From: an uncultured Anaerolinea sp.
GTDB lineage: Bacteria > Chloroflexota > Anaerolineae > Anaerolineales > Villigracilaceae
NCBI GenBank assembly: GCA_964422545.1
Contig: CAYRBO010000016.1
Location: 15,794-79,793, forward strand
Length of the DNA: 64,000 bases
Reading direction: 5' to 3'
In this document: positions 1 through 19,252 of the stretch, one piece after another
How positions within the stretch are numbered: the first letter of the stretch is position 1
How the letters are laid out: each line of letters begins with the position of its first letter
Made by a program: the position numbers and the translations under genes
Notes under the pieces: generated by a model
Seen by the model: the letters and a program-made list of their open reading frames with translations, nothing else
Told to the model about the DNA's origin: nothing
The model's database searches: none

Positions 1-165
1 CTTTGTCTGCGCTTGGCAGATTGACGAACGTAGCCAGTCTTGCCACATCTCGGCATCTCCTGGCCAAGATACCGGGACGTGGTCTTCTCGATAACGGGAA
101 ATGCAACGGATGGAAAGCGATAAACTTGCTTTGTATTTGATTTGGTCTCTGAATCGAATCATCAT

Positions 166-1338: not shown

Positions 1339-1343
1339 GATTG

Positions 1344-2777
1344 TCACCTTGGCCAACCGAAGAAATCGTATATATCATTGCGGACGTATGGACTGTTGAT
1401 TACTGGATAGTGGTCCATCCTTGGATATGACTTATATCGATAAAAAGCCGTATCCGTTTGAGAAACTGAAAGCTTGGCAGTATCAATTCCACCGTAAGCA
1501 TCAGCAATGAAGACTGGAACCGCAGGAGCATTTGGCCCATTACTTGTAACCAAACCTTGCACAACTTTATCAAAATCTGAATTTTCTGGCATACCAAGAG
1601 TGCCAGCAGCAAAAGGTGGGTCGAGCAATATCACGGCATGAACCTGAGTTCCCGCATTGTGTAAATTATCAGCCACAACAACACCGGTATCTGCGCCAGC
1701 ACTAAATCCCACAATAACTACTGGCACGCCAGGGTGCTTTTCTATGATTTTTTCAGTATCGGATTGTTGCCCTGCTTTTGTACCGGGATAAGGAACATAG
1801 ATGGGTGTATAATCAGGATATTGCTTCTGCATTGTTGCTCCCCATCCAGTTAAATCTCCTTTAGACCCTGATATTCCACAATTTTCACCTTGGGCATTTA
1901 TGCTAGGACCCGTTGCTCCACACTCAAGAAGTATTATACCGGCTTGAGTTTTTGGTTTGACTGGTTTAGGCTTAGGTGGACATTTCCCCGCATCTTGGCC
2001 TGGGCAGCCGACATCATGCCCTGACGGGTCGTTATACCGGACGGGATTATTGTTCATCCCGGCATAGCGATCCCAGGCTTGCGTCCCCTGGCTCTCGAGC
2101 GGGATGATGGTATCCGCCTGGGTGAAGCGGCCTAGGCCGGGATCATACCATCTTGCGTTGTAGAACATCAGCCCAAACTCAGGGACGTTGCTGTATTGGC
2201 CGGTGTAGGTGTAGTTTGTGAAGGTGCTGCCCCAAGTATAACGGACTTCGCCCCAAGCGGTGTAGCGCATTTCGGAGGTCTTCGCGCCGGTCGAGTCGGT
2301 CGTCAGGCTGGTCGAGCCCAAATGGTCGCCGAGGATGAATTCGAGGGTCGCGGAGACGGGCACGGTGTACTTGCGCATGGCTATTCTTGTCGAACCAGCG
2401 AAATAATACTTGGTGATCGCGCTGCCAGTCTTTTCATAGTGCCCGCCAACAAAAACGGTTGTCTGTCCATCCGCTGTCGATTTTACCCGCTTTCCATCAC
2501 CGTCGTAGGTGAATTGGGCGATGGTGGCATTGTTTTTCTTGACTTCCACCACGCGATTTTCCCCTGCGGGGACGATGTCAGCGTTATACAAGAGTTGGTA
2601 CTGCCCATCGTTGGCGATGGCACGCTCTATCTGGCTGCCGTTGGCGTCATAAGTGTAGGTGTTGGGTGTGCCAGTGCCAGGTGCCAGGCGCGTTGCGGCG
2701 TGGGCGTGGGCCGAGTCGCCGTAGGTATACGCCAGGGACGCGGCGGTCCGCCTAGCGAAGCGGCCCCAAAATAACAC
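1344..2777 (-). CDS. Orphan Rhs C-terminal cassette (YD repeats + RHS core + alpha/beta-hydrolase-like toxin tip); no independent N-terminus
   Basis: Translation opens inside YD repeats (YTYDANG, FTYDGDGKRV) and continues through the core TKYYFAG...DHLGST...RYTAWGEVRYTWGST...GLMFYNARWYDPGLGRFTQAD...PVRYNDPSGH. The tip contains GFSAGADTG, a GxSxG nucleophile elbow typical of lipases and esterases. No start codon context; abuts the stop of the upstream ORF. Confidence 0.6.
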   Translation of the reverse strand: MLFWGRFARRTAASLAYTYGDSAHAHAATRLAPGTGTPNTYTYDANGSQIERAIANDGQYQLLYNADIVPAGENRVVEVKKNNATIAQFTYDGDGKRVKSTADGQTTVFVGGHYEKTGSAITKYYFAGSTRIAMRKYTVPVSATLEFILGDHLGSTSLTTDSTGAKTSEMRYTAWGEVRYTWGSTFTNYTYTGQYSNVPEFGLMFYNARWYDPGLGRFTQADTIIPLESQGTQAWDRYAGMNNNPVRYNDPSGHDVGCPGQDAGKCPPKPKPVKPKTQAGIILLECGATGPSINAQGENCGISGSKGDLTGWGATMQKQYPDYTPIYVPYPGTKAGQQSDTEKIIEKHPGVPVVIVGFSAGADTGVVVADNLHNAGTQVHAVILLDPPFAAGTLGMPENSDFDKVVQGLVTSNGPNAPAVPVFIADAYGGIDTAKLSVSQTDTAFYRYKSYPRMDHYPVINSPYVRNDIYDFFGWPR

Positions 2778-2779
2778 CG

Positions 2780-3742
2780 CTATTTGCCAAAGTCATACAA
2801 TAACTCAAAACACTTTGAACTGTTTTCGGGATGAACATACATCTCATAAAATGTCACTTCATCAATGCCGGATACATCGCTCAATTGAAGAAAAGGTCGT
2901 TCAGATGGCTCGTTCACAAATAAGAGCACCTTTCTTCCCGCTTCAGCAAATGGTATTTTGACAGAGGGATCCCACAAAAACCAAGACAATTGGTCTCCGC
3001 CAATCCTATCTGGGCAAATTTGTGGCTTTTCTTCTTTCGCGGCAGTTCCTTCGTAGACCGCTAATAATCCCTGACCTGAGTAAAATAATGCGATGGTGAA
3101 GGGTATTTCTGGGTTAATAGTTTGTCTATCCGCAAAAATCCATATTTCGTCTGGTTTACCATGCTTTTGTAGCATTTCTATCAAGGGATAATAGATGTCA
3201 GTAGAAATGGTTTGAACAACGCCATTTTCATCAATAGAAATTCCCGCGCCAATGGCGCCATCAGACACGTTAAGCGGTAGATTTTTATATGCGACCCAAT
3301 AAAAATCACTACTGAACGTGATAATTTCTGGCGACAGTGTCTCGAGAAAGTTTCGTGCTTCCTGCCAGGAGGTTTTGCCTGGCATAATACCCCACCAACA
3401 CGGCAGCTGGCAGCCGCCATTATTTGATAATAAATCCAGTACCAAGGCCTGTGCTGTTTCGGGTGAAAGCGTTGGACGCGGTATCCATGTTGGCGCAACT
3501 GATGTGGCGCGGGAAATGGGCGACTGGACTAAAAAGGGTGTTTGGGTAGATGGCTCTGTGATAATAACCCGGGGTGTTGCAGATGCAAATGCTGCTTTGC
3601 TCGGAATCTGACTGGCGGGTAACGGGAGAAAATCGATATCTGGGCGTAGGTTACAACTCGAAAATAGCAGCGCCCAAGACACAAGTGCATAAACAATCTG
3701 GATGGAATGGGATTTGGAAAGAAGTTTATTCATAATATACAC
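2780..3742 (-). CDS. Lipoprotein, putative immunity protein for the metallopeptidase-type Rhs tip
   Basis: Signal/lipobox LLFSSCN near the N-terminus (start 3742 or 3733). Begins 4 nt after the stop of cassette 3746..4726. No recognisable enzymatic motifs. Confidence 0.4.
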   Translation of the reverse strand: MYIMNKLLSKSHSIQIVYALVSWALLFSSCNLRPDIDFLPLPASQIPSKAAFASATPRVIITEPSTQTPFLVQSPISRATSVAPTWIPRPTLSPETAQALVLDLLSNNGGCQLPCWWGIMPGKTSWQEARNFLETLSPEIITFSSDFYWVAYKNLPLNVSDGAIGAGISIDENGVVQTISTDIYYPLIEMLQKHGKPDEIWIFADRQTINPEIPFTIALFYSGQGLLAVYEGTAAKEEKPQICPDRIGGDQLSWFLWDPSVKIPFAEAGRKVLLFVNEPSERPFLQLSDVSGIDEVTFYEMYVHPENSSKCFELLYDFGK

Positions 3743-3745
3743 CTT

Positions 3746-4726
3746 TCAACGGTTCAGCCAAAGCGGCATTTTTGAATTCATTAGTGTCATCCGCTGGGTT
3801 CCTAGACCACCATCGCGACCAGATAAATCCCAAGTGTTGTAAACCCAGCCAATGAACATGTCGGCGAACACCTCACTAGCTGTGTTGTCCCAGCCGAACT
3901 GCCAATTATCCCATCCGCCTGCAAAACCGTAATACCGACCATACTCATCTGTGTGATCCCCATCGGCATCTCTTAATAAATTTGCGTTCAAACTATTCTG
4001 AGCATCTTTGCCAACCACTTGGTTAAAGGCATGGCCGAGTTCATGTACGATAACGCGCATGTGGTTTTCCAGATAATTGGGAGAATCTTTAACCGAATAC
4101 AAAGTGATATGGTTATATGCGTTTGTGTATCCAGCGTTTCCGGGCTGCTCATTTGACCAGGTAAACGTAAAAATATTGCCATAAACTTTCTTGAACGCCT
4201 CAGCCGCCGATGAAACCTGCGGGCAATTATCATCCCAACCATCGCACATCTGATTGTAAGCTTGTTGAAAGGCTTTTGCCACATTTTCTACCGCAGTTCG
4301 GACTGCCTTTTTGGTTTTGGCAGTCCAGCCATTACCATCAAAGGTAATACCATACTGAGCATCGACAAATGGCAAACTCCAAGTGTCTGCACCATTGCAC
4401 TCCGGATCAGCGTTCGAGCCCGCGCAAACCGATGTATGCCCCGACGGATCGACGTACCTGAGCGGCGAATTATTGACATACGCATACCTGTCCAGCCCCT
4501 GCGCCCCTGGTGGGACAATCATATCCGCCTGGGCGAAGCGGCCCAAACCGGGGTCGTATCCCTTCCGCTGCGCTTTAGGGACGCTGCGCAGCCAGCGTGC
4601 CTGGTAAAACATTAGGCCGAAGCCTTCGGTTCCGCTGGTGGACGGGTCGTCCATGTACGAATACTGACCGGTGAAGGTGTAGTTTGTGAAGGTGCTGTTT
4701 TTACCACGAAGGAAACGACGGAACAC
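3746..4726 (-). CDS. Orphan Rhs C-terminal cassette with HExxH zinc-metallopeptidase-like toxin tip
   Basis: N-terminus LRGKNSTFTNYTFTGQYS is the truncated RHS core (diverged, ends ...RYVDPSGH). The tip carries VIVHELGHAFN, an HExxH zincin motif. The extreme N-terminus is encoded by the junction repeat 4690-4975 and is probably not genuinely coding. Confidence 0.6.
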   Translation of the reverse strand: MFRRFLRGKNSTFTNYTFTGQYSYMDDPSTSGTEGFGLMFYQARWLRSVPKAQRKGYDPGLGRFAQADMIVPPGAQGLDRYAYVNNSPLRYVDPSGHTSVCAGSNADPECNGADTWSLPFVDAQYGITFDGNGWTAKTKKAVRTAVENVAKAFQQAYNQMCDGWDDNCPQVSSAAEAFKKVYGNIFTFTWSNEQPGNAGYTNAYNHITLYSVKDSPNYLENHMRVIVHELGHAFNQVVGKDAQNSLNANLLRDADGDHTDEYGRYYGFAGGWDNWQFGWDNTASEVFADMFIGWVYNTWDLSGRDGGLGTQRMTLMNSKMPLWLNR

Positions 4727-4975
4727 GACGGAAGTGCACTCAAGGTTTTCCGTTGCGCTCCGTCGTCGCCGTTGTGGTGAAAATTTTTCGGCGCAGGCGC
4801 GTCCCTGGCCGCTGTTACGTCAGAGCTAGGCGCGCTCGTCGGCGGTCAGCAGACGTTTGTAGAGTGCCAGTTCGCAACGGGGTAATCTGGTTAGAGAGCC
4901 CCAGCCCCGGCTATGACCTGGCGTGCTGGGCAAGGCGTGTTAACTAGCGAAGCCATATCGAAACGCGGCCAATCT
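4690..4975. repeat. Cassette-junction repeat, copy A (~285 bp) with imperfect 17-bp inverted repeat
   Basis: About 200 bp are near-identical to 10370-10570 (gtgaaggtgctgtttttaccacgaagg[a/g]aacgacggaacacgacggaa...ttccgttgcgctccgtcgtcgccgttgtggtgaaaa...ggcgcgtccctggccg...gtttgtagag), then both copies rejoin at gcgaagccatat. Replaces the 5' part of the RHS core in this cassette. Confidence 0.6.
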
Positions 4976-5006
4976 CACACCGTCTGGAGATAGATATATT
5001 TTTCAT

Positions 5007-5549
5007 CTATTGCTCAACGAACAAATCCACATAAGCACCCACCGGAATCCCTGTTTTTTCATTACCGGATAATAATTCACCCACAACTAATATGCGCACA
5101 ATTTCTTCCTTACCTTCACTTCGAACATTTGGTTCAAGTATAGGGCGAACTGAGTTTGTAAAATAATTTGGTTGTGCGCCTATAATTGGGGAAAGAATAT
5201 ACCCATCTCCGCCAGTAATGCTATAGTATATAGTATCATTCCGTACTTCTACCCATCTCTTATTTTGGAGAACAAAAACTCTAACAAATAATGTGTCAGT
5301 ATTAGTTGAAAGATAGATTGACTCTCCAGAAATATTCTCAACCAAAATATGTACATCTGAACCGAACTTATATTGATCGCCTTTGATAGCTTTTACTCGT
5401 AAGTGAGTATTCATATTAGTAATTGGGATCATCTCTCCAAATAACTTTTCTAAATCGCTGGAAATAGTCGGTTGCTTTGTTGTGCAACCATGAAGACTAA
5501 AGATTAAGACAGCTATGCTAATAGCTATTTCAGCAAAGGTCGATTTCAT
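5007..5549 (-). CDS. Lipoprotein, putative immunity protein (AT-rich)
   Basis: MKSTFAEIAISIAVLIFSLHGC signal peptide plus lipobox. Markedly AT-rich. Begins 13 nt after the stop of orphan cassette 5562..6752. Confidence 0.45.
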   Translation of the reverse strand: MKSTFAEIAISIAVLIFSLHGCTTKQPTISSDLEKLFGEMIPITNMNTHLRVKAIKGDQYKFGSDVHILVENISGESIYLSTNTDTLFVRVFVLQNKRWVEVRNDTIYYSITGGDGYILSPIIGAQPNYFTNSVRPILEPNVRSEGKEEIVRILVVGELLSGNEKTGIPVGAYVDLFVEQ

Positions 5550-5561
5550 AGACGCAGACTC

Positions 5562-6752: not shown

Positions 6753-6818
6753 GGTTAGCGGGCCGATGTACCCGTCGCGCCGCGATTCGAAACCTGCCCT
6801 GAATATGAAAGGTGGTAA

Positions 6819-7211
6819 CTACCGTGGAATTCTCTTACTCTGTGAGGATTTTTTTCTGACAACATAACGCCGCGAAACATAGTAGGTGAAAAGTATGGGT
6901 AGAATGATGATTAGCGCAAAACCAATTAGAAACTCTTGTCTAGATGGCTTCCAGAACATGACTATGGTCAAGTATATTCCTAGTAGAAGGCCAAATATTT
7001 GTCCTCTAAATCCATCTACGCTCATCGTTCCTCTCGGATAATCAGCATTGATCGGAGTACCACAAAGATAATATAGCCATTTTGGGGGAACAATAATTTT
7101 ATCGACATTTTCTTTGGTTGTTCGTTTCGACATAACATGAGTAGTGATAAAAAAGCCAAGTATCCACGAACCTATTGCCAGTATCAAAAGGGGCTCCATA
7201 CGATGCTCCAA
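6819..7211 (-). CDS. Small polytopic membrane protein, putative immunity protein
   Basis: Three to four hydrophobic helices, AT-rich, begins ~20 nt after the stop of cassette 7233..8165. Confidence 0.4.
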   Translation of the reverse strand: MEHRMEPLLILAIGSWILGFFITTHVMSKRTTKENVDKIIVPPKWLYYLCGTPINADYPRGTMSVDGFRGQIFGLLLGIYLTIVMFWKPSRQEFLIGFALIIILPILFTYYVSRRYVVRKKSSQSKRIPR

Positions 7212-7232
7212 TATCCAATATTTGAAATAATT

Positions 7233-8503: not shown

Positions 8504-8530
8504 TCACCCATATCCGCGATCTGTAGTGAA

Positions 8531-9385: not shown

Positions 9386-9500
9386 ATCGATATCAGAAGT
9401 ACCATTTGAGGATGTAAATATCTTTCTCTCTCCATCTCTTGGAAGTTAGAAAAGAGATGGAAAGAGTTGACTTGACTAAAAGCATATCATGGTTCGTTAG

Positions 9501-10598
9501 TTACGGCAAAAACGTTGGAGTAAAGAAAAACGGCGTTGGCGTACTTGATGGGAACGATGTTGGCGTAGATATAACCATGTTAGTTGAAGTTGGCGATGCG
9601 GTGGGCGAAGGCGTTCCAGAACCGTAAGGGCCGAGTCGCGGCGTCGTCCACCAACTATAAATCGAAATACCTATATCACCGATTATTGGCTTACCAAGTA
9701 TGATGGCATCAAATACTTTACCAAAGCCAGAATATGGCACAGTAACAGGGTGACTTGCAAGTACAGGATCTATCAAGTCCGCTCCGCAACTAGGCCCAAG
9801 TGATGGATTGAAACAAGTATCGTAAACAACCTCGCCGACGGTACCTGCTGCATCGACTGCTGTATTTACAGCATCTTGACCAAATAATGTCGGTGTTGGC
9901 TGTGGTGTTGCCTGAGGAAGCGCCATTATACAAGAAGCCCCTGCTTGACATTGTTCGGCTGAAGCAGTTGCTTGATAGGCTGAAGCTGTCGCGTTTGCCG
10001 CTGTTGCAGTAGCGCAAGCATTTGAAGGCTCTCCCTGGCATGGAACAGGCGTAGATTGCATATCTGGAAGCGAAAGAGTGGGGCGTGGTGCAGGCGTTTT
10101 GGGTTTCACAGTCTGGGTTGGCTTGCAATTTTTCCCATCATACCGGCCACCACAGCCCACATCATGCCCTGACGGATCCGAGTACCTGACGGGATTATTG
10201 TTCATCCCGGCATAGCGATCCCACGCCTGGACGCCCTGGCTCTCGAGCGTGATGATGGTATCCGCCTGGGCGAAGCGGCTAAGATACGGGTCGTACCATC
10301 TCGCGTTGTAATACATCAGTCCAAAATCAGGGACGTTGCTGTATTGGCCGGTGTAGGTGTAGTTTGTGAAGGTGCTGTTTTTACCACGAAGGGAACGACG
10401 GAACACGACGGAATGCGCACTTAAGGTTTTCCGTTGCGCTCCGTCGTCGCCGTTGTGGTGAAAAATTTTCGGTGTAGGCGCGTCCCTGGCCGTTGTTGCG
10501 TGAGAGCCAGGCGCGTTCCTCGGCGGTGAGAAGGCGTTTGTAGAGCGCCAGTTGCGCCTACGGCAATGCTTGGGCCGATTGCTGCCTGGCGAAGCCAT
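9501..10598 (-). CDS. Orphan Rhs C-terminal cassette with uncharacterised Cys-containing toxin tip
   Basis: Contains LRGKNSTFTNYTYTGQYSNVPDFGLMYYNARWYDPYLSRFAQADTIITLESQGVQAWDRYAGMNNNPVRYSDPSGH, then a Pro/Thr linker and a ~170-aa domain of unknown type. The first ~70 codons of the ORF are encoded by junction repeat copy B and are probably not genuine. The C-terminal ~40 aa are low-complexity. Confidence 0.55.
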   Translation of the reverse strand: MASPGSNRPKHCRRRNWRSTNAFSPPRNAPGSHATTARDAPTPKIFHHNGDDGAQRKTLSAHSVVFRRSLRGKNSTFTNYTYTGQYSNVPDFGLMYYNARWYDPYLSRFAQADTIITLESQGVQAWDRYAGMNNNPVRYSDPSGHDVGCGGRYDGKNCKPTQTVKPKTPAPRPTLSLPDMQSTPVPCQGEPSNACATATAANATASAYQATASAEQCQAGASCIMALPQATPQPTPTLFGQDAVNTAVDAAGTVGEVVYDTCFNPSLGPSCGADLIDPVLASHPVTVPYSGFGKVFDAIILGKPIIGDIGISIYSWWTTPRLGPYGSGTPSPTASPTSTNMVISTPTSFPSSTPTPFFFTPTFLP

Positions 10599-10640
10599 AT
10601 TGGCCCCAGTCCAGGCATGTGTCTCGTTGGGACACTTTCG
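10370..10640. repeat. Cassette-junction repeat, copy B
   Basis: Near-identical to 4690-4890. Contains the hairpin ggaacgacggaacacgacggaa / ttccgttgcgctccgtcgtc. Sits immediately 5' (gene orientation) of the truncated core of cassette 9501..10598. Confidence 0.6.
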
Positions 10641-10653
10641 GGTTAGAAATCTT

Positions 10654-10995: not shown

Positions 10996-11014
10996 AGAGA
11001 TTACCTCCTTGTAT

Positions 11015-14000
11015 TCATCGTAATTCCTGTTTATGCTTTTTAGCCTGACTTTGTCCCCATTGTGTCGCAAAAGAAGTGGTAACACCTGTAAAAGTTCCTT
11101 GCACGGCTGACCATCTTGTCCATTGAATTTGGTTGATTATGGTTTTATTTGGCGAAAGAAATTCGCCAGCAAGGGTACTGGCCCCACTGTCAAGCGCGCC
11201 GCCGAATGCACCACCAGCAAAAGCAATTCCAAGATCTGGAAGCGAAAACTCATCTGGTGACGTTGCCGCAAGATACGATGCCGCGCCACCAATTCCTTCA
11301 GCCAACATCTTTTTTCCTAATGGTTGACCTGAACTTGCTGCTGCCGTCAGCCCAGCAATTGCCGCATTGCCGACATAAGGAGCACTCTCAAATTCACCAG
11401 GATTCTGAAACATATAAGACTCTGCGGCAAGACCTGTCGCCACACCTACCCCAATGTATGTACTCGCTGTAGTTGCAGCTGCCGACATAGTTGCGTTTGT
11501 TGCCGCAAGAGTAGCGCCTGCCGCTGCGGCTGCTGTGCTTGTAGAGGCGGCTGCCGCAACAATACCAATCCCTGAACCAACCAAGGCTCCGGCGACAACA
11601 CCTACTCCTATGGCTACAGCAAGTTCTTTACCGTTAAAACTATTCCCTTGATTTGTGATTGCATAAGTAACGCCAGCAATCACTCCTCCTGCCAGAGCCC
11701 CGATAAGGGCTGTGCACAAAACCACACAATGCCCTGACGGATCGTTATACCTGACGGGATTATTGTTCATCCCGGCGTACCTGTCCCACGCCTGGACGCC
11801 CTGGCTGTCGACCGGGATGATGGTGTCCGCCTGGGCGAAGCGGCCTAGCGAGCCGTCGTACCACCTTGCGTTATAGTAATACAGCCCAAACTCAGGGACG
11901 TTGCTGTATTGGCCGGTGTAGGTGTAGTCGGTTGGCGTGCTGCCCCAAGTATAACGGACTTCGCCCCAAGCGGTGTAGCGCATTTCGGCAATTTTCGCGC
12001 CGCTGGCGTTGGTGGTGATACTGGTCGAGCCGAGGTGGTCGGTCAGGTAATAGACCGGGTCAGTGCAAGTCGTGTCGGAGCAAGTCCGCGAGGCGATGCG
12101 CTGGGTCCCGGCGAAATAATACTTTGTCCACGTAGTTCCGCCGTAGGTGTAGGCCTGAGCCTGGGCAGCGGGGCGTGACTTGGATAGTCCGGCCATGCGC
12201 CCGGCGGGTTTAGCGAGCGCGGCCAGTTTCGCGCCGCCGGAGGCAGGTTGGGATGGTTCAAACCCTGTCGAAGGCATGCGGTATGTAATGACCAGTTTGG
12301 GCCGCTGGGAGGTCGTGCCGTTATCGGAAGTCTTGAAATTGAAGCGGTCGTTCAGTTCGGCCTCGGTCTTGAGCAACAGGCCATGGTTGGGGACCGCCCC
12401 GCTCACCCATTCCTGCACCCTGGCCGGGTCAAGCGCCATCTGTTTCTCGACCCCCAGCGGTTCGTTATGCGCCACCTGCATCGAGCCGATAGCCGCGCTT
12501 TCGCGGTCATTAGCACCCGCCGCGCCGGGCGACTGCCAGGGAGCGCCGGAAGCGGCATTGTTCCAGGTCGCCTGGCTTTCGCTGAAGGGGACTTTCAGGC
12601 GGTAAGCGCTGATGGTGCTGTCATTGCTTGCCAGGTCGCCATCCGTCCACAGCGAGAGGGTCACCGAAAGAATCTCGGCGTTGGCAGGCAGGGCCGAAAG
12701 GTCGAACTTGAGCAGGCTGCGGGCGAAGTTGTTGGCATAGTCATTCCTTTCACCAATGCCCATGCCTCCCGCGCCGCCATAGTTGTTGTTGTCGGCGCTC
12801 AGGATGTACGCATCGAGGCCGTTCGCGCTATTGGGTTGCAGGGTGAGGGTGTAGACGCTGCCGCCGGGGGTCGGGCTGGGCGTGGGAGTGGGAGTGAATG
12901 TGGACGGAACGGTTGCCGTTGGCGTAACGGTTGGCGTGCGCGTGGGGGTCGCGCTGGGCGTGGGGGAAGGGGTCGGCGAGGCGGTGCTGGTCGCCGTCGG
13001 CGAGGCGGTAAAGGTGGCGGTGGGAGTGGGCGTGCCTTGTTTGACTTCCAGGTGCCCGCCAATGAACAGGGTCGTCTCGCCGTTAATGACCGACTTTACG
13101 CGCCGGCCGTCGCCATCATAGGTGAAGTGGGCATTCATGCCGCTGCCAGTGACCGAGACCAGGCGGCCTTCGGCATCGTAAGCGAGGGTCATAGTCTGTC
13201 CATTGATGGTTCGGCTGACCTGGTTGCCGTTGGGGTCATAGGTGTATGTATTTCCGTTGGAGAGCGAGGCAACGGCGTGGGGGTGATTCGGGTCGTAGGT
13301 GTAGGTCACGCCGGCTTTGGCGGCCAGGTTGCCGGTCAGGGGGTCGTATTGATAGGATTCGTTGTATAGGCCGCTTGTTCCGCCCGTTGCCTGAGCCGCG
13401 GTCAGGCGGTCGAGGGCGTCGTAGGTGAAGTCTTGTAATTGCGGCGCGCCTGCCGCCCAATCCCTAATCCAATCAATGTTGCCAACCGCATCATAGGCAT
13501 ATTCGAGCGATTGCAGCGAGGTGGGAGCGGCGCTGGTTCCCGATTTGATGAAGCGCAGCCGCCCGCCCTGCTGGTTCCAGGCAAAGTAATCGTAATCGGT
13601 CTGCGTGCCGCTGCCATAAGCGCGGATGTTCATGCGCCCGGCAGAATCGTAGGAGGTGGAAGTGACATACGGGCTGCTGCCGCTGACTGTTTCGAGCAGC
13701 ATTTGCGGCGCGTAGGTGTTCGTCACCACTTCGCCATCGGGATAGGTCATCGTCACAGGCAGGTCAGCGCTGTTGTAGGTCCAACCCGTTGTAAAGGATT
13801 GCCCGCTGATGATTTTGGTTTCGGTGAGCATTCGCCCGCGCCAGTCATAGGTCCAGGCGCTGCTGCCGCTGGCGTCGCTCATGCCCGTGCGGCGGCCTTT
13901 GCCGTTCGTCCCAAGGTCATACGTATATGAAGTGTTCACCTGCGTCCCGCACCCCGCGCCGGAGGAGGCTTTGGAGGTCAGCCGGTTGAGCAGGTCGTAG

Positions 14001-17000
14001 CTCAGGGTCAGGCTGCATCCGCGCGCGTCGGTTTGGCTCGTCAGGTTACCGAGCGCGTCGTAGGCGTAGGTCCATCTGCCCATATCGGGATCAGACATGG
14101 TGATTTTGCGCCCGCCAGCGTCGTAGGACAACGTTGTAATTACACCACCGCGCGCCGCCGTCAGCAGGCGGTCGAGCGGGTCGTAGGTATACGCAACGCC
14201 GGGGCCGGCCGGCGGGGTAATAGACGTGGTGCGCCCCCAAACATCGGCGATGCTGGTGGTGACGCGCCCGGCCGGGTCGGTGAGGCGGGTGACCAGGCCA
14301 TCAACGACGGTTGTAGTTTGCGCGCCGTCGGGGGTGGTAATGGTGCTGCTCTTCACGCCGCCCTGGTAAACAGTTTCGCTGGTGGTATAGGCCGGGCTCT
14401 CGCCGGGGCCGTATGGCGCGCTCTGGCGGATTTTGGTGAAGGTATCGTACAGCGTATCAACCGTGTTGAACACGTTGAACGCGCCATCTACGCCTGTGCT
14501 GCTGCCGGTTTCCTGTTTGAACTGGCGGCCCAGGCCGTCATACCGGCGGCGCACGCCGTAGTAGCGGTTGTCATCGATGCGCTGGCGGATGGTGGTGGTA
14601 AACGGCGCGCCGTTTGAGTAACTGATGGCAAGTGTCGGGTTGGCGGAATCATCCTCCGGTCGTATCAATTTGACCAGCCGCCCAAAGACATCATATTGCG
14701 CGCTGGTTATAGCCCCGTTTGGGTCGGTTTCGCTCAACGGCACGCCCAGGGCATAGTCGTAGGTCCAGGTGGCGGTTTGGTTGAGCGGGTTGGTGGTCGA
14801 GGTTGGGTAGGTACGGTAGATGGGGTCAAAAACAGTGGTGGTTGCGCGCGCGCCCACGGTGGGGTTGGCGTTCCAGGCCCCGTACCCGCTCCAGGTGGTT
14901 TCGCTGGTGCGGTTGCCCCAGGCATCATAGCCGTAAGAAACCTGGTGATAACGATTGGCGGGCTGAGCAAATTCGAGCAGCGTGCGCACCGCGGTCAATT
15001 TGCCTTGCGCGGGCTGCACGCCCACTTCCAGGTTGTCGTACAAATATTGCGTAGCTCCGAGCAATCCGCCGCCCGAATCGTAGAGATGCGTGTTTTTGGG
15101 CAGGCCAACCAGGTAAAGGCCGTTCAGGTTGGGCGGCGCATAGGCGGTCGTTTCGCGGATTTTGGTTTGCCAGGCCGAACCACTCTTCTCCTGTCGCAGG
15201 GTTTCCACCAGGTTACCGTAGGTCGATTCGTAAGAAGAAGTGGTTTTGGTGGCCTGGTAAGAATTGTCATTGGCATAGACGCGGTTTTCTTCGATAGAGA
15301 GGTAAATCCAGTTTCTCGACAGGCCTTTGTAGAAACAATCGCCAACATGGCATCCATCGACGCTTGGATACGACATATCCAGGGGGTTGACGCTGTACGT
15401 GTAAAGTGTTTGCGAGTATGTCTTGCCGCCGGAATCCTGGATGGTCACGCTGATTGGGCGGCCTTTCAGGCTGTCGCCCTGGTGATACTGGGTAATCGTC
15501 TTCAACCCGGCGGGGTTGGTTTCGGTGACTGTTGCATGGCCGCGAAATTCGCTATACTTTTCGACATAGGCCGGGCAGGGTGAGGCGGGAGGATTATATG
15601 GGTCATAATCTGGGCAGATGTTCAACAGGGTGTTGCCGTTTGGGAAAGTAACCATCTCGGCGGTGCTGTCGGTGTTGACGGTTGCTCCGGAGTAAGAATA
15701 AGTGTACGTATGAGCATTGCCCTGTCCATCGTCGATGGTTTTGCTCGTCACCCGGTAAATGGAAGTGAGCAGGCGGAATTCGAAGTAGTAGAAACGTCCA
15801 TACCCAGCGCCGGTCACATTGATTTTTGGGTCGGCTTTCGATGCATTGGCTGGTAAAACCTGGACGCTCTCATTGGCCGCGTAGTTGGTTTGCGTACCAT
15901 TGAATAATCCCAGGCTGAGGCTTGTTCCAGCATCCACGCTGCCATGTACCATGAGTTTATATGCGCCGCCGGGTCGAAACAATCCCAGGCCTGGCAGGTT
16001 GGCCTCTCTTGCCACCCCCGAAATAATCATCAGGTCAGCGCCAAGTGTATTTTCCTGGCAATATAATTGTCCGCTTTCGCGCGTCCACCCAAACAAATTA
16101 CATTCTCTCCTGGTTGGGCCAAAATATTGATAATGCGAGCGTGAGCCAGGAGAGTTGGCAGCATAATGCCACATACCGTAATTGAACTGCACCGCGCCGC
16201 CGTAGCCATTCTCTGCTCGGGTCAGGTGCATGTTGTCGCCATAGGTAAAGGTGTGCGCCGGCAGGGCCGTCGTTCCGCCCAGCCCATATTCGGTTATCTT
16301 CTTGAGGGTAGTGGTTTTGCCCCCCGCCGTCCACGAAACCCCGGGCCAGATGAGATTGGCGGGGTTCGTTTCGTATTCGAGTTGATATTTGCGGATAATC
16401 GTTTCGAATACGCCGTCGCCGTCCGCGTCTTGTTCTACGATAATCGAGATCAAGCGCGAGCGTTGGAACTCACGAAAAGGAGCGTCCGTTATCCACTCAA
16501 CCGGATAATCGGAACGCGCCTCGCGTACGAAACGTATCCGGTAACGATTGTGGGGATAGACAATAGTGTTTAGGTATGTGGCAGTTACCGAAGGAACGAA
16601 TGGTCCATGCGCGCTGCAAACATATACTCCCTTGCTGTTCTTCTTCCAGACCCAGGTTTGGAACTCTTTGGTTTCGTCAATGTAGGAATACACCAGGGAC
16701 TTCCCATGCGCGTTCTGTACCCTGGTCAACATCCATTTGTAAGGCAAATCATATTTGCCGCAAATCTCGTCGCTCCCGCCATCCAGGTTATATTGCATCG
16801 AGACCATTTTCTCGAAGTAGTATACGTTTCCTATCTTGTCCCATACTGTCCAGGATGTATCTCCATTGTTTTGAATTTTCCAAAAATTTTCATCCGTCAG
16901 GTGATATCGGGAATCAGCGTTGCTCCAGACAATCGTGCTGCTCACCCCACTCACATTCAGCATGAAAGTATCATCGCCGGTAAAATGGCTGGTGCCGTTG

Positions 17001-18610
17001 TTGTTGCGCTCGATGGAACCTGCATCCAGCGACCAGCCCATGCCTACCCACGAAGCCTGGGTTTTGGCAATTGATTGGTCAACCACCTGGCTGTTGTAAT
17101 TGAGCAATAAACTCGGCTGCAAGCCGCCCGGTCCAGGTGGTACTTCGATGGGGTAGGAGTAGGTGGCCGCACCGGTAAAATTAGACACCTGGAAGGCATC
17201 AATGGTCGGCAGGTGATTGGCCTGCCAGTTGTTGACGCCAATATCGAAGACGGTGAAGTGATTCGAGTACCCGCGCACGACCTTGTTTTCTTTATCCACC
17301 ACCGTTGTCAGCGCATGCCAGGTATCTAACGCAGGGTCATACCAGTGCAGATATAAATCTCCTTCCAGGAGCGGGGGTATCTCGTAATCGGCGTAAGAAA
17401 CTTCGATTTCCACATCATCCTGGAACGTATCCACGCCGCGCTTGCTTTGCGCCCCGCGCGCCGTGATTTCGAAGGGACGCCCGCTCATAGAATGAGATGG
17501 CATCGATTCACGCAGGGGTTTGTGGATGAAAACTTCGACGGATTCAGAGAGTGCGCCTTCAGGGAATTCGACCCGGACCTTGTTTTTCAGCCCGGCTGCC
17601 TGCCCGCCCGCTTGATTGACGCTTACTTTCTCGAACAGGGCCAGGGAACCTTGCCAAGCCCCGCTTTCCTGCTCGCTAGTGGATGGGCTTTTTCCTGCAT
17701 TGTTCACCAGGCGGGCGTCGATGTACAGCGGCAGTTCCGCCTCATCGGAAATTTCCATCTTGAAATCGCCCTTGAGGGCAAAGGGAACTTGCAGCGTATT
17801 GTTTTCTGGGTTGTACGTACCGTTTTTGTCCGCTTGTTTGATAAAAATGCCCCGAGACAGGGAAAACTCGATTGCGTCATAGCCAGTTACACCCTCTACA
17901 ACTTTCCATCGAATAGTCGCCTGCCCGCCCGGCGTGATGAACCCCGGGTTCGATTCCAGCCAAATTTGCTGCCCCACCGGGACGGGCGTTACATCATCTT
18001 CCTTCGGGGATAGAGTGGAAGTCGGCTCAGGCTGCGGCGTTTCGGTCGGCAGCGCTTCATCCGTTGGAAAGGGAGTCGCGCTTTCGGCTGGCTCTGTTCC
18101 CGTGACCGATGTGCCGTCACCCGGTTCGCTGGTAGGCGTCGGCGTCGAAGTTTTATCGTCTTCTTGTTGCAAAAAACCGGGAGCCGCGGCAACCATTCCT
18201 GGTAATACTGCTCCCGATTGGGCAGCCGATGTTTGTTTTGCAAAAACTGTCGCAGGGGGAACAATTTGCTGGAACAGCAAAATAAACAACATGCCGCAAT
18301 TGATGAGCAGTTTAATGATAGCCTCCTGGTAACAGCAATGGTTTAGGAGCGACAATATTGAGTTAATTATCGTCAAAAAATACACATTTGGCAACGAAAT
18401 ATGGGACAGGTTGGTTGGGAAATATTTCCCAAATGTTCGTTTCTGTAAATAGCCTCTCTGCCAGCCCAGGTCTTCTCCAAAATCCAGTTTGCGTTTCCAG
18501 TCGGTTGTCAGGTAAATCCTTACAGGTGGAGCGTTTCGAGCAAAACACAATGCCGCAACGCAAATATTCCTGGGGATGGATTTTGACGCCACTCTTGCGA
18601 ACACATCCAA
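11015..18610 (-). CDS. rhs: Full-length Rhs-repeat polymorphic toxin (signal peptide, Thr/Pro linker, SpvB/Tc-like region, YD-repeat shell, RHS core with inserted DNRLRE-like domain, glycine-zipper C-terminal tip)
   Basis: 2531-aa ORF. A more plausible start is ATG at 18292 (MLFILLFQQIVPPATVFA, signal-like). Dozens of YD repeats (YxYDxxGR/NL). Core TKYYFAG...DHLGSTS...RYTAWGEVRYTWGSTPTDYTYTGQYSNVPEFGLYYYNARWYDGSLGRFAQADTIIP...PVRYNDPSGHC. Then ~260 aa rich in G/A/S/T/I/V with GxxxG-type spacing. Confidence 0.85.
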   Translation of the reverse strand: MDVFARVASKSIPRNICVAALCFARNAPPVRIYLTTDWKRKLDFGEDLGWQRGYLQKRTFGKYFPTNLSHISLPNVYFLTIINSILSLLNHCCYQEAIIKLLINCGMLFILLFQQIVPPATVFAKQTSAAQSGAVLPGMVAAAPGFLQQEDDKTSTPTPTSEPGDGTSVTGTEPAESATPFPTDEALPTETPQPEPTSTLSPKEDDVTPVPVGQQIWLESNPGFITPGGQATIRWKVVEGVTGYDAIEFSLSRGIFIKQADKNGTYNPENNTLQVPFALKGDFKMEISDEAELPLYIDARLVNNAGKSPSTSEQESGAWQGSLALFEKVSVNQAGGQAAGLKNKVRVEFPEGALSESVEVFIHKPLRESMPSHSMSGRPFEITARGAQSKRGVDTFQDDVEIEVSYADYEIPPLLEGDLYLHWYDPALDTWHALTTVVDKENKVVRGYSNHFTVFDIGVNNWQANHLPTIDAFQVSNFTGAATYSYPIEVPPGPGGLQPSLLLNYNSQVVDQSIAKTQASWVGMGWSLDAGSIERNNNGTSHFTGDDTFMLNVSGVSSTIVWSNADSRYHLTDENFWKIQNNGDTSWTVWDKIGNVYYFEKMVSMQYNLDGGSDEICGKYDLPYKWMLTRVQNAHGKSLVYSYIDETKEFQTWVWKKNSKGVYVCSAHGPFVPSVTATYLNTIVYPHNRYRIRFVREARSDYPVEWITDAPFREFQRSRLISIIVEQDADGDGVFETIIRKYQLEYETNPANLIWPGVSWTAGGKTTTLKKITEYGLGGTTALPAHTFTYGDNMHLTRAENGYGGAVQFNYGMWHYAANSPGSRSHYQYFGPTRRECNLFGWTRESGQLYCQENTLGADLMIISGVAREANLPGLGLFRPGGAYKLMVHGSVDAGTSLSLGLFNGTQTNYAANESVQVLPANASKADPKINVTGAGYGRFYYFEFRLLTSIYRVTSKTIDDGQGNAHTYTYSYSGATVNTDSTAEMVTFPNGNTLLNICPDYDPYNPPASPCPAYVEKYSEFRGHATVTETNPAGLKTITQYHQGDSLKGRPISVTIQDSGGKTYSQTLYTYSVNPLDMSYPSVDGCHVGDCFYKGLSRNWIYLSIEENRVYANDNSYQATKTTSSYESTYGNLVETLRQEKSGSAWQTKIRETTAYAPPNLNGLYLVGLPKNTHLYDSGGGLLGATQYLYDNLEVGVQPAQGKLTAVRTLLEFAQPANRYHQVSYGYDAWGNRTSETTWSGYGAWNANPTVGARATTTVFDPIYRTYPTSTTNPLNQTATWTYDYALGVPLSETDPNGAITSAQYDVFGRLVKLIRPEDDSANPTLAISYSNGAPFTTTIRQRIDDNRYYGVRRRYDGLGRQFKQETGSSTGVDGAFNVFNTVDTLYDTFTKIRQSAPYGPGESPAYTTSETVYQGGVKSSTITTPDGAQTTTVVDGLVTRLTDPAGRVTTSIADVWGRTTSITPPAGPGVAYTYDPLDRLLTAARGGVITTLSYDAGGRKITMSDPDMGRWTYAYDALGNLTSQTDARGCSLTLSYDLLNRLTSKASSGAGCGTQVNTSYTYDLGTNGKGRRTGMSDASGSSAWTYDWRGRMLTETKIISGQSFTTGWTYNSADLPVTMTYPDGEVVTNTYAPQMLLETVSGSSPYVTSTSYDSAGRMNIRAYGSGTQTDYDYFAWNQQGGRLRFIKSGTSAAPTSLQSLEYAYDAVGNIDWIRDWAAGAPQLQDFTYDALDRLTAAQATGGTSGLYNESYQYDPLTGNLAAKAGVTYTYDPNHPHAVASLSNGNTYTYDPNGNQVSRTINGQTMTLAYDAEGRLVSVTGSGMNAHFTYDGDGRRVKSVINGETTLFIGGHLEVKQGTPTPTATFTASPTATSTASPTPSPTPSATPTRTPTVTPTATVPSTFTPTPTPSPTPGGSVYTLTLQPNSANGLDAYILSADNNNYGGAGGMGIGERNDYANNFARSLLKFDLSALPANAEILSVTLSLWTDGDLASNDSTISAYRLKVPFSESQATWNNAASGAPWQSPGAAGANDRESAAIGSMQVAHNEPLGVEKQMALDPARVQEWVSGAVPNHGLLLKTEAELNDRFNFKTSDNGTTSQRPKLVITYRMPSTGFEPSQPASGGAKLAALAKPAGRMAGLSKSRPAAQAQAYTYGGTTWTKYYFAGTQRIASRTCSDTTCTDPVYYLTDHLGSTSITTNASGAKIAEMRYTAWGEVRYTWGSTPTDYTYTGQYSNVPEFGLYYYNARWYDGSLGRFAQADTIIPVDSQGVQAWDRYAGMNNNPVRYNDPSGHCVVLCTALIGALAGGVIAGVTYAITNQGNSFNGKELAVAIGVGVVAGALVGSGIGIVAAAASTSTAAAAAGATLAATNATMSAAATTASTYIGVGVATGLAAESYMFQNPGEFESAPYVGNAAIAGLTAAASSGQPLGKKMLAEGIGGAASYLAATSPDEFSLPDLGIAFAGGAFGGALDSGASTLAGEFLSPNKTIINQIQWTRWSAVQGTFTGVTTSFATQWGQSQAKKHKQELR

Positions 18611-18947: not shown

Positions 18948-19252
18948 GAAAACAACCGCCGCGCCTGTCCTGACGGTTTTGGTCAGGGCGAAGCACGGCT
19001 GCTTTAAGATTTTACGCAAAAGGTGACAGCCACCTGGTAACCAAACTGGTCAACCAGAAAGAATATCCTCCATACGAATCGCTTGCGCCAATTTGCGCCG
19101 ATTTTGGCTCCAACCTGCTGCGCCACTCCATGTTACCCCCACGATGTATGAAAAATGGCGGCCTATCAGCCGCCTCATTTGGCGCCCCAGCCAGGACGAG
19201 CACCCCGCAAGGGGTGTTTGCAACCCGGACACGAGCGGGTTAATAAAAAGAG

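What the first reader, a model, noticed from the sequence alone, without database searches (positions are those of the whole stretch)
4690..4975. Conserved ~230-280-bp structured repeat at the 5' junction of two orphan toxin cassettes (second copy 10370-10640)
Two cassettes (3746..4726 and 9501..10598) start their core at the same point (LRGKNSTFTNYT[FY]TGQYS). In other copies the 5' core sequence (GAKIAEMRYTAWGEVRYTWGSTPTDY) occupies that position; here a shared non-coding element replaces it. The element holds a 17-bp imperfect inverted repeat (ggaacgacggaacacgacggaa / ttccgttgcgctccgtcgtc) and a ~150-bp GC-rich conserved stretch. It is conserved between copies but has no conserved ORF. Candidate roles are a cassette-capture or recombination site, a MITE-like element, or an internal promoter or RNA element that lets the orphan tips be expressed independently.
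Basis: seen in the sequence. Interest (0 to 1): 0.6.

Follow-up and report, generated by a model that had tools for sequence, protein, structure and literature searches.

The report
Gene relic plus palindromic repeat scar
The repeat shared by two silent toxin cassettes is an evolutionary scar, made of the decayed tail of an older toxin gene joined to a small palindromic "junk" repeat that also occurs between unrelated genes in related bacteria, so it is ordinary and not a new cassette-capture device.

Summary
Window 4662-4872 and 10342-10553 share 212 bp at 90.6% identity, and patchy similarity continues upstream.

The block is a composite, read here on the minus (gene) strand:
- About 83 nt is a pseudogenised tail of a LamG (Laminin_G_3) domain, 'ELALYKRLLTA[DE]ERAWLSRN[SN]GQGRA', from an ancestral YD/Rhs gene. 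In an intact relative (P0003) this tail is followed by 'SLAYTYGD...', which is where orphan cassette C begins.
- About 95 nt is an imperfect palindrome with arms of roughly 35-40 nt (4696-4789 and 10376-10470).
- The last 34 nt are Rhs core, starting at 'STFTNY'.

The palindrome belongs to a dispersed family. Related copies lie between unrelated genes in metagenome contigs (fpg/methylase, DHDPS/proline racemase, YitT, a cox-like gene), in both orientations. At the DHDPS locus, Anaerolineales-type relatives show presence, absence and a divergent member.

The LamG-tail/palindrome junction recurs in L033 (same 3' junction) and in L054 (different 3' junction). It is therefore old and inherited.

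I found no promoter-like site, no Rfam match, no sense-strand terminator, no attC features and no reading frame conserved through the hairpin.

Verdict: an Rhs pseudogene remnant plus a MITE/REP-like palindromic insertion, propagated by recombination within the array. Low interest.

The parts
4790..4872 (-). Copy A: pseudogenised tail of a LamG (Laminin_G_3) domain plus post-domain linker, 'ELALYKRLLTADERA*L*RNSGQGRAC'. It carries two in-frame stops.
   Evidence: Translation. Matches P0001 at 79% aa identity. Matches intact P0003, where the Laminin_G_3 hit ends at '...LLTADE'. DNA alignment to the parents L001 and L056. A/B differences are biased to one codon phase.
4696..4789 (-). Copy A: ~94-nt imperfect palindrome, 5'-GAAAAATTTTCACCAC...GTGGTAAAAACA-3'. 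It is a member of a dispersed palindromic repeat family.
   Evidence: Covariance model R1 gives 106 bits. Folds. Homologous copies occur in L015, L028/L012, L036, L020, L061 and L059 in non-Rhs contexts.
4662..4695 (-). Copy A: the last part of the Rhs core shared with copy B, encoding 'STFTNYTFTGQY'. The recombination boundary with the A-specific tip lies at about 4662.
   Evidence: The same STFTNY variant is in cassette C at 2194-2229.
4873..4975 (-). Copy A: more strongly decayed and rearranged upstream remnant. It includes TGGCTTCGCTAG (4944-4955) and GGGGCTGGGGCTCTCTAACC.
   Evidence: Patchy alignment to L033, L054, L055 and L001, which hold longer versions of the same remnant. The assignment of individual patches is inferred.
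10471..10553 (-). Copy B: LamG-tail remnant 'QLALYKRLLTAEERAWLSRNNGQGRAYT'. This frame is open but is preceded by a stop and is out of frame with the toxin.
10376..10470 (-). Copy B: 95-nt palindromic repeat-family member.
   Evidence: R1 gives 110.9 bits. Folds.
10342..10375 (-). Copy B: shared core segment 'STFTNYTYTGQY'. Downstream of it, B resembles the cores of cassettes C and D and of the main gene.
   Evidence: B 10280-10377 matches 2140-2229, 6351-6433 and 11855-11928.
10554..10600 (-). Copy B: upstream decayed remnant 'ATGGCTTCGCCAGGCAGCAATCGGCCCAAGCATTGCCGTAGGCG'. Compared with L033 and L001 it has lost 45 nt of LamG coding sequence.
   Evidence: Alignment.
3746..4661 (-). Orphan toxin tip A, which contains an HELGH metallopeptidase-like motif. 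It has no independent start codon outside the hairpin.
   Evidence: Pfam finds no family.
9501..10341 (-). Orphan toxin tip B.
1344..2777 (-). Orphan cassette C. This is the undeleted version of the same parent type. It starts at 'SLAYTYGDSAHAHAAT', the segment that follows the LamG tail in P0001 and P0003, and it carries 'WGSTFTNYTYTGQYS'.
11015..18610 (-). Main YD/Rhs gene of the array (2531 aa). It has RHS repeats, an SpvB domain and a Disaggr_repeat insert.

Best explanation
The block is a composite fossil and not a dedicated device. The steps below are marked shown or inferred.

1. **Parent gene (shown by homology).** An ancestral displaced YD/Rhs 3' module had the order: LamG domain, linker 'GQGRAYTD(I/L)PAPQLPPDV', 'SLAYTYGD...' (about 190 aa), 'WGSTFTNYTYTGQYS', toxin tip.
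2. **Insertion (shown by alignment to the uninterrupted parent).** A ~95-nt palindromic repeat sits in the linker, right after '...GCGCCTAYACCGA'. It belongs to a family scattered in intergenic regions of related Anaerolineales-type genomes.
3. **Deletion (inferred).** DNA 3' of the palindrome was then lost. About 0.55-0.6 kb is missing in the lineage of window copies A and B and of L033, which joins the palindrome to 'STFTNY'. A different amount is missing in L054, which joins it to 'TTDS.G.KTSEMR'.
4. **Spread (inferred).** The junction spread by homologous recombination inside the array. Tip B is a recombinant whose sequence after 'YTGQY' matches the cores of other cassettes. The junction is also present in another organism (L033).

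In the window the palindrome probably has no cassette-specific job. On the sense strand it is a very stable stem-loop of about -40 kcal/mol without a U-tract. It overlaps the only candidate start codon of tip A. Together with the stop codons of the relic, it uncouples the orphan tips from upstream translation, so the tips stay silent reserves. They could be re-used only by recombination with the main gene through the short core. This last statement follows the established Rhs orphan model and is inferred here.
For: - **Shared block.** 212 bp at 90.6% identity.
- **LamG-tail homology.** P0001 matches at 79% identity with E 2e-7 against 5.8e9 proteins. In a scan of 1.84e9 representatives, 366 proteins scored E<=1e-3. 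These include intact P0003 with RHS_repeat and Laminin_G_3, whose Laminin_G_3 hit ends at 'LLTADE' and which continues 'DVSLAYTYGDPAHAHAVT'.
- **Junction position.** DNA alignment of winA, winB, L033, L054, L055, L001 and L056 places the LamG/palindrome junction at one point, 'CCTAYRCCGA|AAA'.
- **Parent type in the window.** Cassette C carries both the post-LamG segment and the rare STFTNY core variant.
- **The palindrome is an independent unit.** blastn and model R1 find it in L015 (after fpg, before a DNA methylase), L028/L012 and L061 (DHDPS to proline racemase spacer), L036 (YitT) and L020. Scores are 87-100 bits and both orientations occur.
- **Polymorphism at one orthologous site.** L058 has a 25-nt spacer with no hairpin. 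L059 and L060 hold a divergent member scoring 42 bits.
- **Different 3' junction in L054**.
- **No sign of a dedicated function.** No promoter-like sites and no Rfam family. Frames through the hairpin differ between A and B because of a 1-nt loop indel. Cassettes C, D and E lack the block.
Against: - Among A, B and L033 the hairpin is somewhat better conserved than the adjacent LamG relic: 91-96% against 86-88%. This could reflect selection on the stem. L054 does not show the pattern (86-88% against 88-92%).
- The changes in the 5' arm of A, B and L054 mostly keep G-U pairing on the sense-strand RNA (and by inspection). L028, L036 and L020 show A-C mismatches on that strand instead.
- Copy number in the source genome is unknown. 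The 64-kb window holds only these two copies.
- The order of insertion and deletion cannot be proven.
- No unambiguous target-site duplication was found. TTAA flanks the DHDPS-locus copies and TATACC flanks L054, but each could be part of the palindrome or a chance match.
Confidence: 0.78

Rival explanations
1. The palindrome is a functional cis-acting RNA or DNA structure that has been co-opted at orphan junctions. On the minus strand it would act as a barrier or stabiliser: a U-less ('I-shaped') terminator or a 3' stabiliser for the upstream toxin-immunity transcript, insulating and silencing the orphan tip. On the plus strand it would act as an intrinsic terminator of antisense transcription.
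For: - The stems are very stable: about -40 kcal/mol on the minus strand and -46 to -47 kcal/mol on the plus strand.
- On the plus strand the stem is followed by TTTTT, and the consensus scan flags part of it in copy A.
- In L028, L061, L059, L036 and L020 the same orientation puts the hairpin just downstream of a gene and in front of a T-run.
- Both window copies lie 3' of an immunity-type ORF.
- The stems are slightly better conserved than the flanking relic among A, B and L033.
Against: - There is no U-tract on the sense strand.
- There are no plus-strand genes in window 1-19000 for it to terminate.
- At the empty site L058 the T-run is present without the hairpin, so the T-run there belongs to the flank and not to the element.
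- L015 and the Rhs copies have the opposite orientation relative to their neighbouring genes.
- L036 and L015 have separate canonical terminators next to the element.
- Orphan cassettes C, D and E do without it.
Confidence: 0.12
2. The block is a recombination or capture site. In one form the hairpin is a site-specific (attC-like) or structure-specific target. In the other the conserved block serves as the distal homology arm, so that incoming toxin-immunity modules integrate by double crossover, one crossover in the core and one in the block.
For: - The same block flanks two different tips with different upstream immunity genes, so recombination has happened on both sides of it.
- The block also occurs in other organisms (L033, L054), so it could supply homology between strains.
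- Several decayed relatives break at or near the same point after 'GQGRAY': P0010, P0012, P0017 and P0086.
Against: - There are no attC-type R''/R' core sites. The 5' end is CACCAC(A/G)ACGG and the 3' end is CGTGGTAAAA, neither of which fits RYYYAAC or GTTRRRY (by inspection).
- No integrase gene or other recombinase was noticed in the array; only part of the window's ORFs were scanned.
- Most family members lie in housekeeping intergenic spacers with no cassettes nearby.
- Three of the five orphan cassettes lack it.
- The breakpoints after GQGRAY are close together but not identical: L055 breaks 4-5 nt earlier, and P0012 and P0086 break later.
- Passive use as a homology arm would apply to any conserved sequence and is not a specialised function.
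Confidence: 0.07
3. The block provides independent expression of the orphan tips through an internal promoter, a leader, or an N-terminal extension translated through the hairpin.
For: ORF B is open from an ATG at 10598 through the hairpin into the toxin. L033 has a similar GTG-started ORF.
Against: - No sigma-70-like promoter on the sense strand in either copy.
- The frame through the hairpin is not conserved: A differs by a 1-nt loop indel and has TAG and TGA upstream.
- The only start candidate in A is a GTG buried in the 3' arm of the stem.
- A protein search with the read-through peptide found no relatives.
- A tip without the YD shell could not be delivered (established knowledge of Rhs toxins, not tested here).
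Confidence: 0.03

Closest known systems
Orphan rhs-CT / immunity modules downstream of a main rhs gene, as described in Salmonella, E. coli, Dickeya and Serratia. The comparison rests on my own knowledge of that literature; no paper was read for it here.
   Same: There is an array of displaced C-terminal tips, each retaining a piece of the conserved core and followed by a small immunity-type ORF. The pieces are mosaic and shaped by recombination in the core. The orphans lack their own start and promoter.
   Different: Here two orphans retain not only the core but also a fragment of a much more upstream part of the parent gene (the LamG tail). That fragment is joined to the core through an internal deletion occupied by a palindromic repeat.
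Bacterial MITE-type palindromic elements such as Neisseria Correia elements, Rickettsia palindromic elements (RPE), ERIC/IRU and RUP. RPE and intragenic REPs are mentioned in PMC3733652; the others are from my own knowledge.
   Same: - The element is about 100 nt long, is almost entirely a long imperfect inverted repeat, and is non-coding.
- Copies are scattered in intergenic spacers in both orientations.
- One orthologous site shows presence and absence.
- The element can land inside a coding sequence, as RPEs do.
   Different: - There is no sequence similarity to any of these elements.
- No clear target-site duplication was found, and no cognate transposase is known.
- Copy number per genome is unknown.
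- Here the insertion is tied to a deletion and sits in a pseudogene, not in a functional ORF.
REP/REPIN elements, including the GTAG- and CGTC-tagged REP superfamilies (Di Nocera et al. 2013, PMC3733652).
   Same: It is a palindromic intergenic repeat that is often located downstream of genes. It contains CGTC motifs: TTCCGTCGT occurs twice in one arm.
   Different: REP units are 20-40 bp with stems of 5-13 bp and short loops (8-9 bp stems and 4-5 nt loops in the CGTC families), and REPINs are inverted pairs of such units. Here a single arm has no self-complementarity. The whole element is one long hairpin, so it does not meet the REP definition.
Intrinsic (Rho-independent) terminators.
   Same: On the plus strand the element is a stable stem followed by a T-run. 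Several family members sit right after a stop codon.
   Different: The stem is far longer than usual, at 35-40 bp. The sequence is conserved between unrelated loci. At the empty site the T-run belongs to the flank. In the window no U-tract lies on the strand that carries the genes.

Membership tests
Rhs/YD gene remnant (pseudogene fragment) | Significant sequence homology to part of an intact YD/Rhs gene | tested here: met
   The element translation matches P0001 (E 2e-7, 79% identity). P0001 in turn matches P0003, an RHS_repeat + Laminin_G_3 protein, at 87% identity over residues 548-630.
Rhs/YD gene remnant (pseudogene fragment) | Disrupted reading frame or truncation relative to the intact gene | tested here: met
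   Copy A has TAG and TGA in frame. Copy B has a stop just upstream and a 45-nt deletion. L033 has a 10-nt deletion inside 'LYKRLL'. Everything 5' of the LamG tail is missing or scrambled.
Rhs/YD gene remnant (pseudogene fragment) | Location in an array of displaced tips downstream of a main rhs gene | tested here: met
   The main gene is at 11015-18610 (RHS_repeat, SpvB). It is followed on the same strand by cassettes B, E, D, A and C.
MITE (miniature inverted-repeat transposable element) | Small, non-coding, with terminal inverted repeats | tested here: met
   The element is 94-105 nt and the arms pair over about 35-40 nt. The three frames differ between copies, so there is no ORF of its own.
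MITE (miniature inverted-repeat transposable element) | Several dispersed copies in unrelated genomic contexts | tested here: inconclusive
   Five independent contexts were found across metagenome contigs: the Rhs junction, L015, the DHDPS locus, L036 and L020. L015 and L033 come from the same metagenome. Copy number within any one genome could not be measured. The window holds only the two Rhs copies. The GTDB representative scan gave only two chance hits.
MITE (miniature inverted-repeat transposable element) | Presence/absence polymorphism at an orthologous site | tested here: met
   The DHDPS to proline racemase spacer is filled in L028/L012 and L061, holds a divergent member in L059/L060, and is empty (25 nt) in L058. 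The linker of the uninterrupted LamG-YD genes L056 and L001 is likewise an empty site relative to winA, winB, L033 and L054.
MITE (miniature inverted-repeat transposable element) | Target-site duplication flanking the element | tested here: inconclusive
   TTAA lies on both sides at the DHDPS locus, but it is itself palindromic and may be part of the arms. TATACC lies on both sides in L054. No repeat is seen at L015, L036, L020 or the window copies.
MITE (miniature inverted-repeat transposable element) | Cognate autonomous IS or transposase with matching inverted repeats | not testable with these tools
   This needs the complete genomes of the carriers. None was available.
REP / REPIN (GTAG- or CGTC-tagged) | A unit of 20-40 bp with a stem of 5-13 bp and a terminal tag, or a REPIN formed as an inverted pair of such units | tested here: not met
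   The definition comes from PMC3733652. A single arm here (TTCCGTCGTGTTCCGTCGTT...) has no internal complementarity, and the structure is one long hairpin.
Integron attC site | R'' (RYYYAAC) and R' (GTTRRRY) core sites at the ends of the palindrome, and an intI gene | tested here: not met
   By inspection of ten aligned copies, the ends are (C/A)ACCAC(A/G)ACGG and C(G/T)T(C/T)GTGG(T/C)(A/T)AA. Neither fits the consensus, which I recall from my own knowledge. Only part of the window's ORFs were scanned with Pfam, and none of those was an integrase.
Intrinsic terminator | A GC-rich stem directly followed by a U-tract on the transcribed strand | tested here: not met
   On the sense (minus) strand the stem is followed by UAAAAACAGC. 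Only the antisense strand has TTTTT.
Any curated RNA family (Rfam 15) | A score at or above the family's gathering threshold | tested here: not met
   There is no hit in the region at gathering thresholds. With E up to 10 only chance-level matches of 15 bits or less appear.

The most novel reading that the evidence does not exclude
The ~95-nt palindrome would be an undescribed Anaerolineales repeat family with a real activity in toxin arrays. It could be a U-less transcription or translation barrier that keeps orphan tips silent. It could instead be a fragile, hairpin-forming site that provokes breaks and adjacent deletions and so drives cassette turnover. The second idea would fit the different 3' deletions in L054 compared with the window, and the cluster of breakpoints after 'GQGRAY'.
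Probability: 0.12. Interest if true: 0.5.

Novelty: new member of a known kind. Interest (0 to 1): 0.22.

Why it matters
The main value is as a clean explanation. A conserved 'structured element' at toxin-cassette junctions turns out to be a fragment of an older gene plus a small palindromic repeat. It should not be annotated as a regulatory or capture site.

Three smaller points follow:
- The work documents a palindromic repeat family in Anaerolineales-type Chloroflexota that no library or search used here recognised, including a filled site, an empty site and a divergent member at one orthologous locus.
- It shows that such repeats, and at least two other short recurrent insertions, invade and fragment decaying Rhs cassettes.
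- It shows that three of the five orphan modules in this array (A, B and C) descend from one LamG-containing parent type that differs from the resident main gene. This is useful for reconstructing how these arrays grow.

Tried and rejected
- **Rfam.** The whole window at gathering thresholds, and both copies at E up to 10, gave nothing relevant.
- **Promoter and terminator scans.** No sense-strand promoter or terminator. Only a partial antisense terminator-like hit in copy A.
- **Protein search with the peptide read through the hairpin in the frame of ORF B.** No candidates.
- **Genome-contig scan with a 20-mer of the 5' arm.** Two chance hits without a hairpin. The source organism is therefore not among the species representatives, or its representative lacks the element.
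- **Viral contigs, plasmids and phages.** No match.
- **Literature search for the arm sequence.** No paper. The searches 'Rhs orphan MITE' and 'Chloroflexi REP' gave only the general REP paper.
- **Strand-specific RNA structure (G-U bias).** Suggestive in A, B and L054 but contradicted by L028, L036 and L020. Covariation is weak, with 3 pairs changed on both sides, all from the poorly aligned L059. It also cannot separate RNA pairing from inverted-repeat symmetry. Note that the 3' arm of the metagenome hits is invariant because the search pattern required it.
- **A 12-nt match (CGCGTTTCGATA) between the region upstream of copy A and the 5' flank of L015.** I judged it coincidental, because the copy A sequence aligns to the LamG-remnant lineage.
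- **TGGCTTCGCYAG as a junction signal.** Not enriched in the window: 18 matches against 12.6 expected. In A and B it is explained as part of the decayed remnant. The near-match at the start of cassette C is only suggestive.
- **Extending the window towards the rest of the array.** Only short contigs were returned, with no further copies.
Full report
**Setting.** All genes in window 1-19000 lie on the minus strand. A 2531-aa YD/Rhs protein (11015-18610; RHS_repeat, SpvB, Disaggr_repeat) is followed by five displaced C-terminal modules, each with a small downstream ORF. I call them:
- B: 9501-10598
- E: 7233 to about 8500
- D: 5562-6752
- A: 3746-4726
- C: 1344-2777

. The finding concerns the DNA just 5', in the gene's sense, of A and B.

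**Observation.** blastn of each region against the window gives one strong pair: 4662-4872 = 10342-10553, 212 bp, 90.6% identity, E 1e-80 (alignments).
- The last 34-36 nt of the block encode 'STFTNYT[FY]TGQY'. They also match cassette C at 2194-2229.
- Upstream of 4872/10553 only patches align, for example TGGCTTCGCYAG at 4944-4955 and 10586-10597, with 39 nt difference in spacing.
- The block contains a self-reverse-complement match of 86-90 nt. It folds into a long hairpin of about -40 kcal/mol on the minus strand and -46 to -47 kcal/mol on the plus strand.
The palindrome is larger than stated and the tightly conserved part is shorter.

**The GC-rich half is a gene relic.**
- The first six A/B differences (4865, 4853, 4850, 4847, 4838, 4835) all fall in one codon phase.
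- In that frame the sequence reads '[EQ]LALYKRLLTA[DE]ERAWLSRN[SN]GQGRA[CY]'. Copy A has TAG and TGA where copy B has TGG and TCA.
- A search of 5.8e9 proteins with this translation returned one hit, P0001, 'VDELALYKRLLTAEERAWLSRNSGQGRAYDDIPAPQLPPDVSLAYTYGDPAHAHAAT...'.
- A HMMER scan of 1.84e9 representatives with P0001 returned 366 proteins at E<=1e-3.
- One of these, P0003 (674 aa), is an uninterrupted YD-repeat protein with a Laminin_G_3 domain at residues 441-577. By the offsets, that Pfam hit ends at '...LYKRLLTADE'. The protein continues 'RAWLHNNGQGRAYTDLPAPQLPPDVSLAYTYGDPAHAHAVT...'.
- Cassette C of the window starts at exactly that 'SLAYTYGDSAHAHAAT' and carries the rare 'WGSTFTNY' core variant that A and B also have.
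- A, B and C therefore descend from one parent type: LamG, linker, SLAYTYGD..., STFTNY, tip. This differs from the resident main gene, which has a Disaggr_repeat insert and 'STPTDY'.

**The palindrome is a separate, dispersed element.**
- A scan of JGI metagenome contigs used a degenerate 20-mer that matches both arms. It was followed by blastn and by a covariance model built from seven copies (R1).
- Beyond chance 20-mer hits, these steps gave true copies in the following places:

| Locus | Context | Source |
|---|---|---|
| L033 | Same composite as the window: LamG tail, palindrome, 'STFTNYIYTGQYSYMDDP...' stub resembling tip A. It stands alone between a hydrolase gene and a membrane-protein gene. 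| |
| L015 | After an fpg-like gene and its own terminator, 280 nt before a DNA methylase gene. From the same metagenome as L033. | |
| L028 = L012 | Fills the 91-nt spacer between a DHDPS-family gene and a proline-racemase-family gene. | |
| L036 | Upstream of a YitT-family gene. | |
| L020 | Between two co-directional ORFs. | |

- Flanks outside 5'-(A)AAAATTTTCACCAC...GTGGTAAAAACA-3' are unrelated between these loci.
- Three loci (the DHDPS locus, L036, L020) carry the element in one orientation relative to their neighbouring genes. L015 and the Rhs copies carry it in the other.
- No further copy is present in the 64-kb window.

**Filled and empty sites.**
- Close homologues of the L028 proline racemase are named Anaerolineales or Chloroflexi by their sources.
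- Three of them keep the DHDPS to racemase synteny.
- L061 has the orthologous palindrome at 89.6 bits. L059/L060 have a divergent member of the family at 42 bits, with the same ends and partly complementary changes in both arms. L058 has only a 25-nt spacer and no hairpin.
- The uninterrupted linkers of L056 (P0003) and L001 (P0001) are the empty-site equivalent of the Rhs insertion. Homology runs through '...GCGCCTAYACCGA' and then switches to the palindrome in winA, winB, L033 and L054.

**History of the junction.**
- L054 (P0010) has the same LamG-tail/palindrome junction, but its 3' side joins the core about 20 codons earlier, at 'TTDSNGVKTSEMR'. The 5' junction is therefore older than the 3' junction. 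I infer an insertion in the linker followed by different deletions 3' of the palindrome.
- Other decayed relatives break close to, but not exactly at, the same place after 'GQGRAY': P0017/L055, P0012/13 and P0086.
- In the window, homology between A and B ends at about 4662/10342. Beyond that point B resembles the cores of C, D and the main gene. B is therefore a recombinant that acquired the A-type 5' end.
- The upstream patches belong to a longer decayed remnant that is better preserved in L033, L054, L055 and L001. This covers the TGGCTTCGCYAG motif, which is not enriched in the window.

**Function tests.**
- No sigma-70-like promoter lies on the sense strand in either copy.
- On the sense strand the stem is followed by UAAAAAC, so it is not an intrinsic terminator there. 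On the antisense strand it is followed by TTTTT, but no plus-strand genes read into it. At the empty site L058 the T-run belongs to the flank.
- The frame through the hairpin differs between A and B, and a protein search with the read-through peptide found nothing.
- Rfam gives nothing.
- The ends do not fit attC core sites (by inspection).
- A single arm is not self-complementary, so the element is not a REP or REPIN as defined in PMC3733652.
- Segment identities are as follows:

| Comparison | Hairpin | LamG relic |
|---|---|---|
| Among A, B and L033 | 91-96% | 86-88% |
| Those three against L054 | 86-88% | 88-92% |

  There is no consistent sign of selection on the stem.
- Covariation is weak and cannot separate RNA pairing from inverted-repeat symmetry. 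The 3' arm of the metagenome hits was fixed by the search pattern.

**Conclusion.** The block is an inherited scar. It consists of a pseudogene fragment of a LamG-containing YD/Rhs gene, a MITE-like palindromic repeat of a family dispersed in Anaerolineales-type genomes, and the truncated core. It is present twice in the window because of recombination within the array. Its most likely effect is passive: a strong stem-loop and stop codons that leave tips A and B without their own expression signals.

I put 0.78 on this explanation. The rivals are a co-opted barrier or terminator (0.12), a recombination or capture role (0.07) and independent expression (0.03). Assigning the source organism to Anaerolineales is an inference from the carriers of the repeat family and was not tested directly.

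Noticed in passing
window 8159-8192 (-); also L055 ~4068-4105 and L054 ~838-870: A 34-nt insertion, 'GCGCGCAGCCCCCCGTAGCGCAGCGGAGTGGGTA', follows 'EMR' in the core of orphan cassette E and has TA on both sides. It creates a stop codon. Near-identical insertions sit at the same core position in two other organisms and are read through in P0012. This is a second recurrent short element in these arrays.
   Followed up: partly
L055 ~4020-4050; P0012 and P0013: A further insertion of about 27 nt, 'CCTGCCCTGAGCCAGGTCGAAGGGTCG', splits 'GAKT|(S/A)EMR' of the core in decayed relatives. Its translation is 'CPEPGRRV' or 'PALSQVEG', depending on the frame. From memory it resembles a GC-rich repeat whose translations are common in Chloroflexi ORFs. 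That resemblance was not tested.
   Followed up: no
L057 1150-1195: A 17-bp hairpin (one G-T pair), GGCCACGTCCCGGTATC...GATGCCGGGACGTGGCC, lies directly 5' of another LamG-tail remnant and is followed by 'CTGCAAAAACAGCA'. It is another palindrome at a fragment boundary in an Rhs array.
   Followed up: no
L028 4410-4504, L061 1389-1483, L059 1406-1492, L058 1476-1500: The DHDPS to proline racemase spacer in four related Anaerolineales-type contigs holds the palindrome, its orthologue, a divergent family member, or nothing. TTAA lies on both sides of the filled sites.
   Followed up: yes
window 11015-18610 (-): The main YD/Rhs gene carries a Disaggr_repeat (DNRLRE-like) domain, flanked by Pro/Thr-rich linkers, between the YD shell and the C-terminal core. 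Relatives such as P0003 carry a LamG domain at a comparable place. This looks like a swappable insert domain.
   Followed up: partly
window 8531-9385 (-): The ORF downstream of orphan tip B is an Rce1-like CAAX protease family protein (PF02517), a family often associated with bacteriocin or toxin immunity (own knowledge).
   Followed up: no
window 30433-30763 (-); 19253-19325, 51947-52019, 52106-52177 (-): There is a T-box leader upstream of the 486-aa ORF at 28937-30397, and there are three tRNA genes. One tRNA lies about 640 nt upstream of the listed start of the main Rhs ORF.
   Followed up: no
L001/L002 and L055: In other metagenomes, LamG-tail remnants sit next to HicA/PIN toxin-antitoxin genes and at the edge of an array beside a SelA operon. 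They end at almost the same point (after 'GQGRAY') without the palindrome.
   Followed up: partly
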